Positions 42,484-46,720 of a stretch of 64,000 bases of DNA are shown piece by piece. This stretch comes from Candidatus Cloacimonetes bacterium HGW-Cloacimonetes-1. Its GTDB lineage: Bacteria > Cloacimonadota > Cloacimonadia > Cloacimonadales > Cloacimonadaceae. Position 1 is the first letter of the stretch. Each line of letters opens with the position of its first letter. Where the stretch lies: NCBI GenBank assembly GCA_002841975.1, contig PHBQ01000017.1, positions 33,695-97,694 of the forward strand, in the 5' to 3' direction. Under the pieces are notes generated by a model. The model searched no databases and was not told the origin of the DNA. It saw only the letters and a list, made by a program, of their open reading frames with translations. The position numbers and the translations under genes were made by a program.

Positions 42484-42615
42484 ATCAACTCCTTTAAGCT
42501 GCTTGTATATCAATTTATTACAAATCAAGGTATAGGAATTTTCCTGTAGAGCTGTATCCCATATCTTTTCAGAATCGTCAAGCAAAATCTCTGGGAGGCT
42601 GTTGCACTCTTCGTA

Positions 42616-42962
42616 CCGGAGCTTGCTGAAGCTCCGATCTTTCTTCTTTTGCGGAGGATCGGCATCCTCCGGCTACGAAAAAGGTTCTGCCCACCGAGCT
42701 TGGGAGCGAGAACCTGCTCCCTCTCCAGTTCTGGAAGTCTGGGTCCCCAATCGTCAACTTGTTGGCTGTAGGTGTTTGGGGTGAAGAGAGCTGGGGTGAG
42801 TGAAGCCTAAGGTGGAGCGCAGCGGAACCTCAGGAAACACACACCCAACACAGTTTTAGTCCTGGAGGGGCGGCACAAACGTGGTTTGGGAAAAGGGCAG
42901 ACATGCAGGTCTGCCCCTATGGTAAACTCTGTGTTACTATAGCAGGAACGGCGTCCTGCTCG
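42616..42962. repeat. Mosaic repeat block on the left flank of the AT-rich island
   Basis: Its order is a CB two-hairpin unit (42616-42677), aacctgctccctctccagttctgg (42711-), gggaaaagggcagacatgcaggtctgcccct (42888-42918), gtgttactat, then aggaacggcgtcctgctc. The same modules occur in the same order at 46478-46656. Confidence 0.75.
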
Positions 42963-43125
42963 ATTTGGATTACCTTTGTTTCCGGAGTCGATCCAGGTTG
43001 TCGCTTTATCTCTGCCATGACAGGTTCGTTGTACCAAGGTCTATGCCCAGTATCCTCACGGGCTTGCCGCACTTAGATGACACAAACACGCTAGTCATAC
43101 AAATCTCCCAAAATCATATACCTCA

Positions 43126-44067
43126 TTACTGTGTTCTGGTAATTATCCAATTAGCCAACCCCGCTGACATCGCCAGTTTAGCAATCTCTTCCGCAAACAG
43201 TAAGTTCGCATTTGTATTAGCAGTTTCTTTTTTGTATTTGATCAGATTCTTAGCAGGGCTATGTGCGAAAAAGAAGAGTTTTCCATTGTCAGGCAACGCA
43301 TCTTTGTACTCTTCATATTCCTTTTTGGTCGCCCTAGATTTAACTTGAACCCATGCCCTATCTCCAGTTAATGGGTCAACTAAGTCAATATCTAATGTCT
43401 TCTGAGTTCCACCAACCTTTGAAACCCTTTCCCATCCCACATGGCGTATAATCAGATCAATGAGGAGCTCAAAATCGCTCCAAGTCAGGGATTGGATCAA
43501 GGGCATTAACGCCTTCTCAAGATCTTGAAAACACTCATTTGCCATGTCGTTGTGCTCTGTCCTGCGTCCATTGATTTTGCGAATAATGTAGTCTGTATCT
43601 GTTAAATCATACTCGCAAATTGTTCCAAGAAATCCTCTTTTTGCTGTTATCCGACCGTTGATATTGCTCATGTACAAGATGTTTCCATTAATGTCCCTAT
43701 CACTCCAACCAAGAGGAGATGATTTGATCTTCAGGTTTTCTGATATTTGCTCAATGTCTTTGTCGGCTTTGCACCACCACATTTTGTTGTCATGAAAAGT
43801 AATCCATATTGTCTCTGAATTAGCTGTATAGAAATACTTCACTTGTTTTACGTGATTTTTCGCTGTAGTTATGTTTGTTTTCATCCCATCGACGAAGTGT
43901 TTTATGACTCCATCCCACTTTTGATCTACACATAATTGATGATCCACCTCTCGATAATCGAGCATGACTTGACCATTGTTTCTGCACTTTTCAAAGAAAG
44001 AGCTTCCTTTACCAAGCCTAATAAATAGTGCATTTGATGCTGTTACTTCTTTGTCTCTTGTTTTCAT
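43126..44067 (-). CDS. Unknown N-terminal domain (~190 aa) fused to an Mrr-type PD-(D/E)xK restriction endonuclease domain
   Basis: The C-terminal block LTWSDFELLIDLIIRHVGWERVSKVGGTQKTLDIDLVDPLTGDRAWVQVKSR fits the Mrr_cat pattern (W.DFE.L ... D.D ... Q.K). I do not recognise the N-terminal half. Confidence 0.7.
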   Translation of the reverse strand: MKTRDKEVTASNALFIRLGKGSSFFEKCRNNGQVMLDYREVDHQLCVDQKWDGVIKHFVDGMKTNITTAKNHVKQVKYFYTANSETIWITFHDNKMWWCKADKDIEQISENLKIKSSPLGWSDRDINGNILYMSNINGRITAKRGFLGTICEYDLTDTDYIIRKINGRRTEHNDMANECFQDLEKALMPLIQSLTWSDFELLIDLIIRHVGWERVSKVGGTQKTLDIDLVDPLTGDRAWVQVKSRATKKEYEEYKDALPDNGKLFFFAHSPAKNLIKYKKETANTNANLLFAEEIAKLAMSAGLANWIITRTQ

Positions 44068-44107
44068 TATTACTCCTTTGTTTGCCTGGTTAATTGTAAC
44101 ATATTCT

Positions 44108-44854
44108 TTAGATCGTCCGCGCTTTTATGTGGTAGTCTATGCTTTTCATCCGACAGAAATCTATAACTATATCTACTGAATCATTATAGAAATCTTGAAA
44201 TCCCTTGTAGGCTGATACCAACTTATTATAGTGCAATCTCCCAAAGATAATCCTATCAGTGAAGGAAACTTGACTAAGTAAAGATCCCAGGTCTTGCTTA
44301 ACTATATTTGGTGTGGGATACGGCTCTATACTCACCCATGTTTTACAACCCATGTCGTGCAAGTTCTTCATGCTTGCCAATCGAGTGTGATAATCTGCAG
44401 AAAAGGGCTCGTACTGCTTTCTAAAGCCTTCATCGAAAGAAACCAAAGAAATGCCCCACTCATGCTTTCTATCAGACTTCGAAAGCTCGTGAGGGAGAAC
44501 TCCCTTAGTAAGAGCAGTGCATTTTATACCATAATGATCCAATAGCTTGATGATCTCCAGGCTCATTTCAGTTACTTCAGGATATCCATACATAAATGGG
44601 TCGGTGGTAAAGCAAAGATGCACGGATTTGATACTTTTCTGCTTCTTGGGAATCTCTTTCTTTAACAGATCGAGAGCGTTTTCAACGAGCTTGGGTTCCA
44701 GCCAATCTTGATAATCTTTTACCCTGCCGAATCTGCGAGCCATCATGTAAGCATAACAGGGATATGTGCAACCATGAGAACAACCCAACACGTGGTTAAT
44801 TGTGTAGTCGCCGTATTCAACACCGGTTTTGTATAGTAAGGTTTTTCTTATCAT
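44108..44854 (-). CDS. Radical-SAM-like TIM-barrel protein with a three-Cys motif (SPL/COG1533 or Gp37/Gp68 DUF5131 type)
   Basis: 248 aa. Cys triad GCSHGCTYPCYAY near the N-terminus. Downstream blocks HLCFTTDPF, ALTKGV, ISLVSFD and WVSIEPYP resemble SplB-like/Gp37-like proteins. The start lies 2 nt after the TcmP-like gene's stop. Confidence 0.65.
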   Translation of the reverse strand: MIRKTLLYKTGVEYGDYTINHVLGCSHGCTYPCYAYMMARRFGRVKDYQDWLEPKLVENALDLLKKEIPKKQKSIKSVHLCFTTDPFMYGYPEVTEMSLEIIKLLDHYGIKCTALTKGVLPHELSKSDRKHEWGISLVSFDEGFRKQYEPFSADYHTRLASMKNLHDMGCKTWVSIEPYPTPNIVKQDLGSLLSQVSFTDRIIFGRLHYNKLVSAYKGFQDFYNDSVDIVIDFCRMKSIDYHIKARTI

Positions 44855-44856
44855 GT

Positions 44857-45957
44857 TTAATAAATCTCAATTATGTCTTTTTTGGTCGGTTTACTGCTTT
44901 GCCTCATCGATGATACACGCACTATGTTCGCCAAATTGTTATTATACAGATTCAAAACAGCAAAAGATATGTCTTTGCCAAGATATGGTGTGGTATCTAT
45001 CATTTTATCAAGCAGTTCATCGAATGATAATCGTAACTTCTTGAAGTTAGTACAAATATACGATTCGATCTCTTGAACAGGATCTTCAATTAGATCGAAA
45101 ATGAAACTCTGGTTCTGATTTTTACCTATATACTCTATCTTTCCATGATTCAACTCGGCAAAACAAGCCTTCATGATCTCACATCCACGTATATGATTAG
45201 TTAAATGAATCATGTAAAAGTAAGTCCGATCTATCGCTGGAAAACAAATCCTATATGGGAGGACATATCTCGAGAACTGCTTGAATTGGTTCCTTATCAA
45301 GTCTATAATGCACGCTTCTCGTTCAATTCCGTGAAGCTGTTGGCAATCCCTCCATTCAGTGCAACCGAATAGTTCATCCATTGTGTTGTCAACTTTCCCC
45401 GAACTAATGCCTCTATTAACAGCATTGAACATAAAATTGAAATATACTTCGCTGTTTTTAACCTCCATTAGGCGTTTTATTGTATTTATCTTGATTTTAT
45501 ACCCATATGGATCAACTAAAAAGAAAGTAGGATATAGCTTCTTTCCTTCATTGCTAAGATTCGTAAGTAAACTGTTTATGTAAGTATCGAAATCATCATT
45601 GTATAACTCGTACTCGCAAATACAGTTGAAATACTTAAAAGCATGGGGGATGTTATCAGTACATCTCTTGTCGGTATCGAGTATTGTGATACAGCAATCT
45701 CTATCCAGAGTTCGCGCATTGTTTTCAATGACCTCTGCCGCTATTATCGGGCTACCTGGGTGCAGAACACTGTCCTTATCATACATACCACATCCCCCAA
45801 AACAATCGATGAAATTTAACGCACCTGCATGCCCCACTATTTTGACCCATTTATCGAAGTATGATTTGAAGACTTGATGCTTAATCATTGTCTGCTCCTC
45901 ATATACAAAAGCAAAATAGGGCTTTCCAGGGTATTTAATAACGTCGTGAGTCGCCAT
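44857..45957 (-). CDS. TcmP-like protein (three-Cys-motif partner protein, methyltransferase-like fold)
   Basis: 366 aa. The motif series FIDCFGGCGMY ... GSPIIAAEV ... FFLVDPYGYK ... FNFMFNAVNR ... LFGCTEWRD matches my recollection of TIGR04474. D-x-F-x-G-x-G resembles SAM-binding motif I. Confidence 0.6.
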   Translation of the reverse strand: MATHDVIKYPGKPYFAFVYEEQTMIKHQVFKSYFDKWVKIVGHAGALNFIDCFGGCGMYDKDSVLHPGSPIIAAEVIENNARTLDRDCCITILDTDKRCTDNIPHAFKYFNCICEYELYNDDFDTYINSLLTNLSNEGKKLYPTFFLVDPYGYKIKINTIKRLMEVKNSEVYFNFMFNAVNRGISSGKVDNTMDELFGCTEWRDCQQLHGIEREACIIDLIRNQFKQFSRYVLPYRICFPAIDRTYFYMIHLTNHIRGCEIMKACFAELNHGKIEYIGKNQNQSFIFDLIEDPVQEIESYICTNFKKLRLSFDELLDKMIDTTPYLGKDISFAVLNLYNNNLANIVRVSSMRQSSKPTKKDIIEIY

Positions 45958-45974
45958 AATTCTTACTAAACCTC

Positions 45975-46184
45975 CTAATTATCGAATGTCCTTGCTTTGC
46001 GCAGTCTATTTGCAGTAAGTTCCAGTAACCCGGCATAGAGAGCTTTGATCTCTGGCTCCGTCAATCCCAGGGCAGCAAAGACCACATCATCCAAGGCCTT
46101 TCTATCCGGCAAGGGATTGGCATTCATAAAAGAGCTGGACTCAGGATCAACCTGCAACTCATGAAAAATACTATTCATAATCAC
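45975..46184 (-). pseudogene. Probable C-terminal remnant of a DNA methyltransferase (type IIG / N6-MTase style tail)
   Basis: 69-aa ORF. The motif RKALDDVVFAALGLTEPEIKALYAGLLELTANRLRKA resembles the conserved C-terminal (E/K)LD..V....GLT..E...(V/L)Y.....L...R..KA tail of many R-M methyltransferases. No catalytic part exists upstream; repeats and a hairpin follow instead. Confidence 0.45.
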
Positions 46185-46359
46185 CTCTTATACTTATATC
46201 AATATTTTTCCCTATTTATGTCAAGTAATTTTAATGCTGCTCAAACCAGCTGAAGATGGTGGACCAACCGGCTAAAGCCAGCGTTACCCATACGGGGCGG
46301 TCACTTTCAGCGTTCTGCGGACTCTGGAACATCCCCATTCCATGAAGCTTCCTTATTGA

Positions 46360-46428
46360 GTTGTGGCTATGATGTGGCTATGCCGCCCTATGATTCATGG
46401 GGCGGCATAGCCACATCATAGCCACAAC
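46360..46428. repeat. 29-bp perfect inverted repeat (long hairpin) with an 11-nt loop
   Basis: gttgtggctatgatgtggctatgccgccc (46360-46388), loop tatgattcatg, then gggcggcatagccacatcatagccacaac (46400-46428). I verified the arms base by base as exact reverse complements. Confidence 0.9.
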
Positions 46429-46477
46429 TAAGTAAGGGAGCGGTAGTTTTCGGAAAGGCTGAATGCCGGGCTTGCAA

Positions 46478-46720
46478 AACCTGCTCCCTCTCCCGTTCTG
46501 GGAGTCGGGGTGTTTTGGGAAAAGGGCAGACACGCAGGTCTGCCCCTACTGGAAAATCCGTGTGAATCCGTTTCATCCATATTATCCGTGTTACTATTCC
46601 ATTATCATTTTTCTTTACTGCCATGACACTCAGTAGGATCGGCGTCCTGCTCTACAGCGTAGCGGAGCTTTCTGAAGCTCCGAGTCTTTTCCTTTAGTAG
46701 GATCGGAATCCTACTCTACG
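46478..46720. repeat. Mosaic repeat block on the right flank of the AT-rich island
   Basis: aacctgctccctctcccgttctgg, gggaaaagggcagacacgcaggtctgcccct, gtgttactat, aggatcggcgtcctgctc, then a diverged CB unit (gcggagctttctgaagctccg ... gtaggatcggaatcctactctacg). It has the same orientation as 42616-42962. Confidence 0.75.

What the first reader, a model, noticed from the sequence alone, without database searches (positions are those of the whole stretch)
44108..44854. Non-canonical CX3CX3C cysteine triad in the radical-SAM-like protein
The only N-terminal Cys cluster reads G-C-S-H-G-C-T-Y-P-C-Y-A-Y, giving C-x3-C-x3-C spacing. Canonical radical SAM enzymes, including SplB/COG1533 (GC.hGC.YCYA), use C-x3-C-x2-C. 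As I recall, Gp37/Gp68 proteins use a longer first spacer. The extra Pro before the third Cys would change the cluster-binding loop. The protein may therefore bind its Fe-S cluster atypically, or may not perform classical 5'-dA radical chemistry.
Basis: seen in the sequence. Interest (0 to 1): 0.6.

Follow-up and report, generated by a model that had tools for sequence, protein, structure and literature searches.

The report
Radical-SAM enzyme with one-proline-longer cysteine loop
The odd CX3CX3C cysteine spacing is real and is the hallmark of a very large, untested family of mobile radical-SAM-like enzymes that usually sit beside a methyltransferase-like partner (TcmP). Relatives have repeatedly lost the extra proline and returned to the normal spacing, so it most likely still holds an ordinary iron-sulfur cluster.

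Summary
The 248-aa protein (44108-44854, minus strand) reads G-C25-S-H-G-C29-T-Y-P32-C33-Y-A, which is CX3CX3C. It is not a sequencing error: 117/117 full-length homologs at 61% identity or more carry GC.HGC.[YF]PCYA, as do 84 of 104 cluster representatives down to about 35% identity.

The difference from canonical relatives (GC.HGC.YCYA) is one inserted residue, nearly always Pro. A profile-profile alignment to canonical COG1533-type radical SAM proteins (probability 100%, E 1e-44) has one gap in this loop, opposite that Pro.

On an outgroup-rooted tree the basal family members are CX3CX3C. Canonical CX3CX2C members are nested at five or more places. The two spacings therefore interconvert, which argues for the same site-differentiated [4Fe-4S]/SAM site and against new cluster chemistry.

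The predicted fold is radical SAM; spore photoproduct lyase is the widest match.

In 71 of 73 related loci with an abutting upstream ORF, that ORF is TcmP (RlmJ-like methyltransferase fold). In-frame TcmP fusions exist. However, the motif also occurs without TcmP, and TcmP also pairs with canonical proteins.

Function is untested. This scan has noted the same pair at least 37 times on other DNA.

The parts
44108..44854 (-). 248-aa radical-SAM-like protein related to SPL and COG1533-type proteins, carrying the CX3CX3C triad
   Evidence: ORF. Pfam Radical_SAM 33.8 bits, above the 29.5 cut-off. NCBIfam gives only far sub-threshold hits to Rv2578c, PA0069 and rSAM_mob_pairB. AF2 model pLDDT 88.8. 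The significant Foldseek PDB matches (E <= 0.001) are radical SAM enzymes; SPL 4fhc has TMq 0.66. hhalign to canonical relatives gives probability 100%, E 9.9e-45.
44756..44782 (-). Codons of C25-S-H-G-C29-T-Y-P-C33, the CX3CX3C cluster-binding loop
   Evidence: Read directly from the sequence. Conserved as GC.HGC.[YF]PCYA in 117/117 close homologs.
44759..44761 (-). Codon CCC for Pro32, the single inserted residue relative to canonical CX3CX2C relatives
   Evidence: A one-column indel in the family alignment: P in 51 and Q in 1 of 52 x3x3 rows, a gap in 16/16 x3x2 rows. It is the only gap in the Cys loop in the profile-profile alignment. One relative has His at this position (L176).
44857..45957 (-). 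TcmP (three-Cys-motif partner protein), 366 aa. Its stop codon lies 2 nt before the radical SAM start codon.
   Evidence: TIGR04474 151.5 bits against a cut-off of 53. Weak GMT-wHTH at residues 281-345. PADLOC PDC-M30A and M41A. AF2 pLDDT 90.6. Best PDB folds are RlmJ/DUF519 and other class I SAM methyltransferases.
43126..44067 (-). Downstream 313-aa protein with a weak Mrr_cat nuclease signature. It is a neighbour, not a conserved partner.
   Evidence: Pfam Mrr_cat E 0.0017, below the cut-off. No tblastn match in any of 80 related loci. Other loci carry unrelated genes at this position.
42612..42964 (.). Left repeat block bounding the low-GC islet
   Evidence: Direct repeat families D1-D4 are shared with 46478-46719. 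GC falls from about 0.53 to 0.34-0.42 between the blocks.
46478..46719 (.). Right repeat block bounding the low-GC islet

Best explanation
The gene encodes a genuine member of the radical SAM superfamily, on the branch that also holds spore photoproduct lyase and the COG1533-type proteins (PA0069, Rv2578c, 'mobile pair B'). One proline has been inserted in its cluster-binding loop between the conserved aromatic residue and the third cysteine (C-x-H-G-C-x-Y/F-P-C).

Inferred: the three cysteines still ligate three irons of a site-differentiated [4Fe-4S] cluster. The fourth iron binds SAM, which is cleaved reductively to a 5'-deoxyadenosyl radical. The insertion lengthens the loop without changing the chemistry.

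Shown: the insertion is the hallmark of a very large, horizontally mobile family, and it has been lost again several times.

Inferred from gene order, fusions and folds: the enzyme works as the conserved catalytic half of a two-protein unit. Its fast-evolving upstream partner TcmP, an RlmJ-like SAM-methyltransferase fold with a C-terminal winged helix, probably selects a nucleic-acid target. The pair most likely modifies DNA, or possibly RNA, in the restriction and phage-defence arms race.
For: - Motif conservation: 117/117, 84/104, 117/119.
- Single-residue indel: alignments. hhalign to canonical relatives gives probability 100%, E 9.9e-45, 223 columns, with one gap in the Cys loop, opposite Pro. 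It also aligns TTDPF with cDPYqp, LTKG with LTKS, EP..a..R with EP.A..R, and TWVSiEP with TyV.i.P.
- Interconversion: the careful ML tree needs 9 state changes (bootstrap range 9-10). At least 6 are forced by strongly supported branches, and 0 of 200 bootstrap trees allow a single change.
- Polarity: with canonical outgroups the family clade (SH-aLRT 96) has CX3CX3C members at its base and CX3CX2C members nested at five or more places. One example is P0138+P0283 grouped with P0271 at support 98.
- Fold: pLDDT 88.8, with 82-88 over the loop. The significant PDB matches (E <= 0.001) are radical SAM enzymes.
- Pfam Radical_SAM scores above its gathering threshold.
- Pairing: 73/80 loci from many phyla have an abutting same-strand upstream ORF, and 71 of those 73 match TIGR04474.
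- In-frame TcmP-radical SAM fusions P0123 and P0132.
- Conservation asymmetry: the radical SAM protein is 59-87% identical across these loci, whereas TcmP is 11-42% identical in all but one of them, L014 at 83%.
- TcmP fold: RlmJ-like.
- Context: restriction-modification, SIR2, AAA_15/21 and Eco57I/MmeI-type methylase genes.
Against: - No member of this family has been purified or assayed, and no paper in the searchable library describes a CX3CX3C radical SAM motif.
- Model coordinates could not be inspected, so the geometry of the three thiolates is untested.
- The Pro is kept in about 80-98% of members, so it is under selection and may tune something: SAM positioning, redox potential or docking of the partner.
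- One position four residues after Cys3 co-varies with it. It is hydrophobic (M/L) in x3x3 members and K/S/N in x3x2 members.
- The sequence profile finds no solved structure, so the link to characterised enzymes rests on fold and distant profile matches.
- The nucleic-acid target and any defence role are inferred only from context. The PADLOC B-component models match only the first ~80 residues, weakly.
Confidence: 0.7

Rival explanations
1. The longer loop changes the chemistry. The cluster binds SAM in a different geometry, so the enzyme cleaves a different C-S bond (as Dph2 does) or uses the cluster and SAM without forming a 5'-dA radical.
For: The Pro is strongly retained, in 84/104 to 117/117 members depending on the set. 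It sits next to the aromatic residue that in canonical enzymes precedes Cys3 and contacts SAM (general knowledge of the CX3CX-aromatic-C motif). A nearby position co-varies with the indel. No biochemistry exists.
Against: Canonical CX3CX2C proteins arise repeatedly inside the family, keep all other family motifs, and stay 40-57% identical to CX3CX3C members. A switch of reaction mechanism would not be expected to reverse five or more times. From general knowledge, other enzymes with altered spacing that still make 5'-dA are known, such as ThiC (CX2CX4C), HmdB (CX5CX2C) and QueE variants.
Confidence: 0.15
2. The triad is a structural metal site (Zn or a non-catalytic Fe-S cluster) in a protein that no longer uses SAM. 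The catalytic activity of the pair would lie in TcmP.
For: TcmP has a SAM-methyltransferase fold. The Pfam Radical_SAM score is only just above threshold, 33.8 against 29.5.
Against: The radical SAM partner is by far the more conserved of the two proteins, at 59-87% identity across phyla. It has invariant residues throughout the barrel, including D85-P86-F87, T116-K117, E149, R158 and E177-P178, and these align with motifs of canonical relatives. That pattern fits an enzyme, not a scaffold. From direct inspection, TcmP's DP-Y motif is degenerate relative to the DPPY of N6-methyltransferases.
Confidence: 0.1
3. The spacing is a sequencing or assembly error, or a private indel of this genome.
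For: None found.
Against: The same spacing occurs in hundreds of independent assemblies from many phyla. The frame is intact and the protein is 90% identical to P0001.
Confidence: 0.01

Closest known systems
Canonical COG1533-type radical SAM proteins (NCBIfam NF033668 PA0069 family, NF038135 Rv2578c family, TIGR04470 'radical SAM mobile pair protein B'), all functionally uncharacterised
   Same: Homologous over the whole length (hhalign probability 100%, E 9.9e-45). They share GC.HGC.Y.CYA, a TDP motif after strand 2, LTK[GS], EP...R, and a W/Y-V-x-I-x-P strand. Their size is similar, about 250-350 aa.
   Different: They have CX3CX2C. The window protein has one extra Pro and scores far below their curated cut-offs: 44 against 430, 43 against 360, and 39 against 410 bits. 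Most are not next to TcmP; only 2 of 80 loci are.
Spore photoproduct lyase (SplB; PDB 4fhc, TIGR04070)
   Same: It is the widest structural match to the model (TMq 0.65-0.66). It is a radical SAM partial barrel that acts on DNA. JGI labels family members 'DNA repair photolyase'.
   Different: There is no sequence-level match and only 13-15% identity in the structural alignment. SPL is about 340 aa with canonical CX3CX2C, it is not paired with TcmP, and it is a sporulation gene rather than a mobile-islet gene.
TcmP + DUF5131 (phage Gp37/Gp68, PF07505) pairs; PADLOC candidate systems PDC-M30 and PDC-M41
   Same: The same partner family TcmP (TIGR04474; PDC-M30A 64 bits) lies next to a roughly 240-aa three-Cys protein. 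Both are mobile, sit in defence islands and are untested.
   Different: DUF5131 has C-x6-C-x2-C spacing in the one true member examined. The window protein scores below the PF07505 cut-off (22 against 28.9 bits) and only over its first ~80 residues. The PDC-M30B and M41B models match only weakly.
Radical SAM enzymes with known non-canonical cluster motifs: ThiC CX2CX4C, HmdB CX5CX2C, QueE CX14CX2C (from general knowledge, not tested here)
   Same: The spacing of the three cluster cysteines is altered within an otherwise radical SAM fold.
   Different: Those are unrelated subfamilies with different insert positions. No paper describing CX3CX3C as a radical SAM cluster motif was found in the searchable literature.

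Membership tests
Radical SAM superfamily (Pfam PF04055) | Profile score above the curated gathering threshold | tested here: met
   33.8 bits against 29.5, residues 19-188.
Radical SAM superfamily (Pfam PF04055) | CX3CX2C cluster motif with an aromatic residue before the third Cys | tested here: not met
   The motif is C25-x3-C29-x3-C33. The aromatic Y31 is kept but is separated from C33 by P32.
Radical SAM superfamily (Pfam PF04055) | Partial or full (beta/alpha) barrel fold, with the Cys loop after strand 1 | tested here: met
   AF2 pLDDT 88.8. The 29 Foldseek PDB matches at E <= 0.001 are radical SAM enzymes, including SuiB, SPL, HydE, PFL-AE, NifB and viperin.
Radical SAM superfamily (Pfam PF04055) | Binds a [4Fe-4S] cluster and reductively cleaves SAM | not testable with these tools
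   This needs anaerobic biochemistry.
Spore photoproduct lyase (TIGR04070) | Match to the equivalog model | tested here: not met
   There was no TIGR04070 hit at E <= 0.1. Only fold-level similarity was found.
PA0069 / Rv2578c / rSAM mobile pair B (NF033668, NF038135, TIGR04470) | Score above the curated cut-off | tested here: not met
   43, 44 and 39 bits against cut-offs of 360, 430 and 410. The protein is homologous but not a member.
DUF5131 / phage Gp37-Gp68 (PF07505) | Score above the gathering threshold over the full 243-position profile | tested here: not met
   22 bits against 28.9, covering profile positions 2-85 only. The one true member examined has C-x6-C-x2-C.
TcmP-partnered three-Cys proteins (partner of NCBIfam TIGR04474) | Encoded directly beside a TIGR04474 TcmP gene | tested here: met
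   TcmP scores 151.5 bits against a cut-off of 53, and its stop lies 2 nt before the radical SAM start. The same arrangement is seen in 71 of 73 related loci that have an abutting upstream ORF.
PADLOC candidate systems PDC-M30 / PDC-M41 | Both the A and B component models match | tested here: inconclusive
   The A component matches clearly (PDC-M30A 64 bits). The B component matches weakly and only at the N-terminus (26 and 24 bits, residues 9-88).

The most novel reading that the evidence does not exclude
The proline-expanded CX3CX3C loop defines a radical SAM clade with unprecedented nucleic-acid chemistry. TcmP (RlmJ-like fold with a winged helix) would dock on and flip a specific base in DNA. 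The radical SAM partner would then install or remove a modification by radical chemistry, giving a new kind of epigenetic mark or a new restriction or anti-restriction mechanism. The extra Pro would tune the SAM/cluster geometry, or the TcmP interface, for that reaction.
Probability: 0.25. Interest if true: 0.75.

Novelty: new variant of a known kind. Interest (0 to 1): 0.42.

Why it matters
Radical SAM enzymes are usually recognised by the CX3CX2C signature. This family has thousands of sequence clusters across bacteria and archaea, and most of its members break that rule by one residue. No curated NCBIfam family model covers it, and none of its members has been studied. Showing that CX3CX3C supports normal SAM cleavage would widen the working definition of the superfamily. 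The natural CX3CX2C revertants offer ready-made controls for that test. The pairing with TcmP in defence and restriction-modification islands suggests an untested nucleic-acid modification or immunity function. The finding is not new to this scan, and nothing here shows new chemistry.

Tried and rejected
- Sequence and profile searches of the PDB with the protein and with alignment A1 gave no meaningful hit. Only the fold search linked it to solved radical SAM structures.
- Literature searches for TcmP, TIGR04474, DUF5131, PF07505, PDC-M30, GMT-wHTH, CX3CX3C and COG1533 found annotation-table mentions only. The CX3CX3C hits concern sactipeptide substrates, defensins and similar, not radical SAM cluster motifs.
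- The metagenome scan with the canonical-member alignment mostly returned distant PA0069-type proteins rather than the close CX3CX2C sisters. The contexts of the sisters came instead from a second homolog search and look-ups.
- The idea that the motif is specific to TcmP-linked members was rejected.
- The idea that the 313-aa Mrr-like gene is a conserved third component was rejected.
- The idea that the 69-aa upstream ORF is the C-terminus of the N6 methylase seen in locus L005 was rejected. It instead resembles sequence just upstream of TcmP in other Cloacimonadota loci.
- Model coordinates are not exposed to the Python box, so Cys-Cys distances could not be measured.
- The phage and plasmid collections hold almost no close copies: 2 phage records and no close plasmid hit.

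Full report
**1. The observation**

The ORF at 44108-44854 on the minus strand encodes 248 aa beginning MIRKTLLYKTGVEYGDYTINHVLGCSHGCTYPCYAYMM. Read from the DNA, the codons are C25 44780-44782, C29 44768-44770, P32 44759-44761 and C33 44756-44758. The remaining cysteines (81, 112, 170, 234) are scattered.

**2. It is not an error or a private indel**

A search of 5.8 billion proteins gave 7,581 hits at E <= 0.001. All 117 full-length sequences among the best 120 (61-90% identity) carry GC.HGC.[YF]PCYA.

A search of 50%-identity cluster representatives gave 2,025 hits at E <= 0.001. Of the top 150, 104 include the N-terminus. After correcting four regex mislabels by eye, 84 are CX3CX3C and 20 are canonical CX3CX2C.

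The family occurs in Cloacimonadota, Bacillota, Spirochaetota, Alphaproteobacteria, Actinomycetota, Nitrospirota, Elusimicrobiota, Synergistota, Patescibacteria and archaea. It is often 60% or more identical across these groups. That distribution indicates horizontal mobility.

**3. What the difference is**

Aligning family members of both kinds shows a clean one-column indel...GC.HGC.Y-CYA... against ...GC.HGC.YPCYA.... The inserted residue is Pro in 51 of 52 x3x3 rows and Gln in one. One Cloacimonadota-order relative has His.

A profile-profile comparison was run between the family and 15 more distant canonical relatives, whose best NCBIfam matches are the rSAM mobile pair B, PA0069 and Rv2578c models. 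It gives probability 100%, E 9.9e-45, over 223 columns. It has one gap in the Cys loop, opposite the Pro. The post-strand-2 TDP motif, LTK[GS], EP...R and the WVSIEP strand all align.

The aromatic residue that precedes the third Cys in canonical enzymes is retained, but the Pro now separates it from that Cys.

**4. Evolution of the spacing**

A careful ML tree of 68 family members needs 9 changes between the two states (bootstrap 5-95% range 9-10). At least 6 changes are forced by strongly supported branches, and none of 200 bootstrap trees allows a single change.

Nine canonical outgroup rows were then added and the tree was rooted on the two most distant of them. The family forms a supported clade (SH-aLRT 96). 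Its basal members are CX3CX3C, and CX3CX2C members are nested at five or more places. For example, P0138+P0283 sit inside an otherwise x3x3 clade, grouped with P0271 at support 98.

Consistent with this, 117 of the 119 nearest relatives of canonical P0138 are x3x3.

The simplest reading is one insertion at the base of the family followed by repeated loss. Both spacings are therefore viable in the same protein framework. This is the main argument that the cluster site works in the ordinary way.

The Pro is nevertheless kept in most lineages. Position 37, four residues after Cys3, co-varies with it: M/L in x3x3 members and K/S/N in x3x2 members (exploratory). Some tuning role remains possible.

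**5. Fold**

AlphaFold2 with a 36-sequence alignment gives pLDDT 88.8 and pTM 0.88, with an alternating strand-helix pattern.

Foldseek against the PDB returns radical SAM enzymes as its significant matches (E <= 0.001). Spore photoproduct lyase covers the most of the model (TMq 0.65-0.66, 13-15% identity).

Pfam Radical_SAM is just above threshold. DUF5131 is below threshold and matches only the N-terminus. All NCBIfam hits are far below their cut-offs, so no curated NCBIfam family model covers this protein.

**6. The partner**

The upstream gene (44857-45957) ends 2 nt before the radical SAM start. It is TcmP (TIGR04474, 151.5 bits against a cut-off of 53).

- In 80 loci from species-representative genomes, 73 have an abutting same-strand upstream ORF. 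Three of the other seven sit at contig ends.
- Of those 73 ORFs, 71 match TIGR04474.
- The radical SAM proteins in these loci are 59-87% identical to the window's. The TcmPs are 11-42% identical in all but one locus (L014, 83%).
- In-frame TcmP-radical SAM fusions exist: P0123 (634 aa) and P0132 (592 aa).
- The TcmP model (pLDDT 90.6) is a class I SAM-methyltransferase fold closest to RlmJ/DUF519, followed by a winged-helix domain.

This pattern suggests a conserved catalytic subunit paired with a diversifying targeting subunit. That is an inference.

**7. The motif and TcmP are not exclusively linked**

- A CX3CX3C member in Thermoanaerobacterium lies beside a MobL relaxase and type IV secretion genes, with no TcmP.
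- The canonical revertants P0138 and P0283 have no TcmP. P0138 sits in a phage-like run of small ORFs with ParB.
- Two more distant canonical proteins (L090, L138) are TcmP-linked.
- PADLOC lists TcmP with DUF5131-type partners as candidates PDC-M30 and PDC-M41.
- A true DUF5131 member reads C-x6-C-x2-C.

TcmP therefore partners with three-Cys proteins of at least three different spacings.

**8. Local context**

The three genes at 43126-45957 lie in a 3.5-kb stretch of 34-42% GC, within DNA of about 50% GC. The stretch is bounded by directly repeated blocks at 42612-42964 and 46478-46719. No tRNA gene was found in the window.

The downstream 313-aa protein has only a weak Mrr_cat signature and has no counterpart in any related locus. 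Elsewhere that position holds unrelated genes, or a C-terminal extension of the radical SAM protein of about 350 aa (L014, L175).

Neighbours in other loci include type I/IIG restriction-modification genes, SIR2, AAA_15/21 and Eco57I/MmeI-type methylases.

Within the window's own taxonomic family the gene is patchy.

**9. Prior knowledge**

No paper in the searchable library describes a CX3CX3C radical SAM motif or a tested function for TcmP. RadicalSAM.org lists DUF5131, SPL and MJ0683-like proteins as subgroups of one megacluster.

This scan has recorded the same pair at least 37 times in at least 34 genomes, with follow-ups that reached the same general reading. The tree-based result of repeated reversion is not mentioned in the eight follow-up summaries shown.

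**10. Verdict**

The motif is real and conserved, but the evidence favours ordinary cluster and SAM chemistry on a loop one residue longer.
- It is a new variant of a known kind.
- It is moderately interesting as an untested, very large enzyme family in defence-island contexts.

Noticed in passing
window 45975-46184 (-): The 69-aa ORF just upstream of TcmP has counterparts at 40-81% identity in the same position, directly before TcmP, in seven other fetched loci (L007, L010, L011, L014, L017, L175, L179), all Cloacimonadota or kin of the window's genome. In L011 and L014 a 1,050-1,100-aa Eco57I/MmeI-type methylase ORF lies further upstream and ends 60-600 nt before that piece. In the window the large methylase is absent. 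The piece may be a conserved small gene or the detached C-terminus of such a methylase. It does not match the N6 methylase of locus L005.
   Followed up: partly
L014 5001-6833 and L175 1462-3252: In the closest Cloacimonadota relatives the CX3CX3C protein is fused to a C-terminal extension of about 350 aa. The extension has no Pfam match apart from a weak Relaxase_C hit and no similarity to the window's downstream Mrr-like protein.
   Followed up: partly
window 43126-44067 (-): This 313-aa protein has only a sub-threshold Mrr_cat match in residues 191-245 and an unassigned N-terminal half. No homolog was found next to the TcmP pair in any of the 80 related loci.
   Followed up: partly
window 42612-42964 and 46478-46719; hairpin 46347-46441: Mosaic direct repeats (54, 38, 34 and 24 nt; 82-91% identical) bracket the low-GC islet. 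A 47-nt inverted repeat, 91% complementary, lies just inside the right block. No integrase or tRNA gene was seen.
   Followed up: partly
L170 / L171 6001-6855 (Thermoanaerobacterium, CP003184.1): A CX3CX3C family member stands alone, without TcmP, between a ParM-like partition gene and a MobL relaxase plus type IV secretion genes of a conjugative element. This hints at a role during DNA transfer, for example anti-restriction.
   Followed up: no
L176 1429-2226: A relative in the same taxonomic order carries His in place of the inserted Pro (GCSHGCLYHCYA). No TcmP was detected in the 1.4 kb upstream.
   Followed up: no
P0159 (509 aa): A canonical-spacing family member is fused to a C-terminal sigma-70 region 4 DNA-binding domain (Sigma70_r4_2, 25.9 bits). 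This is consistent with a DNA-directed function.
   Followed up: no
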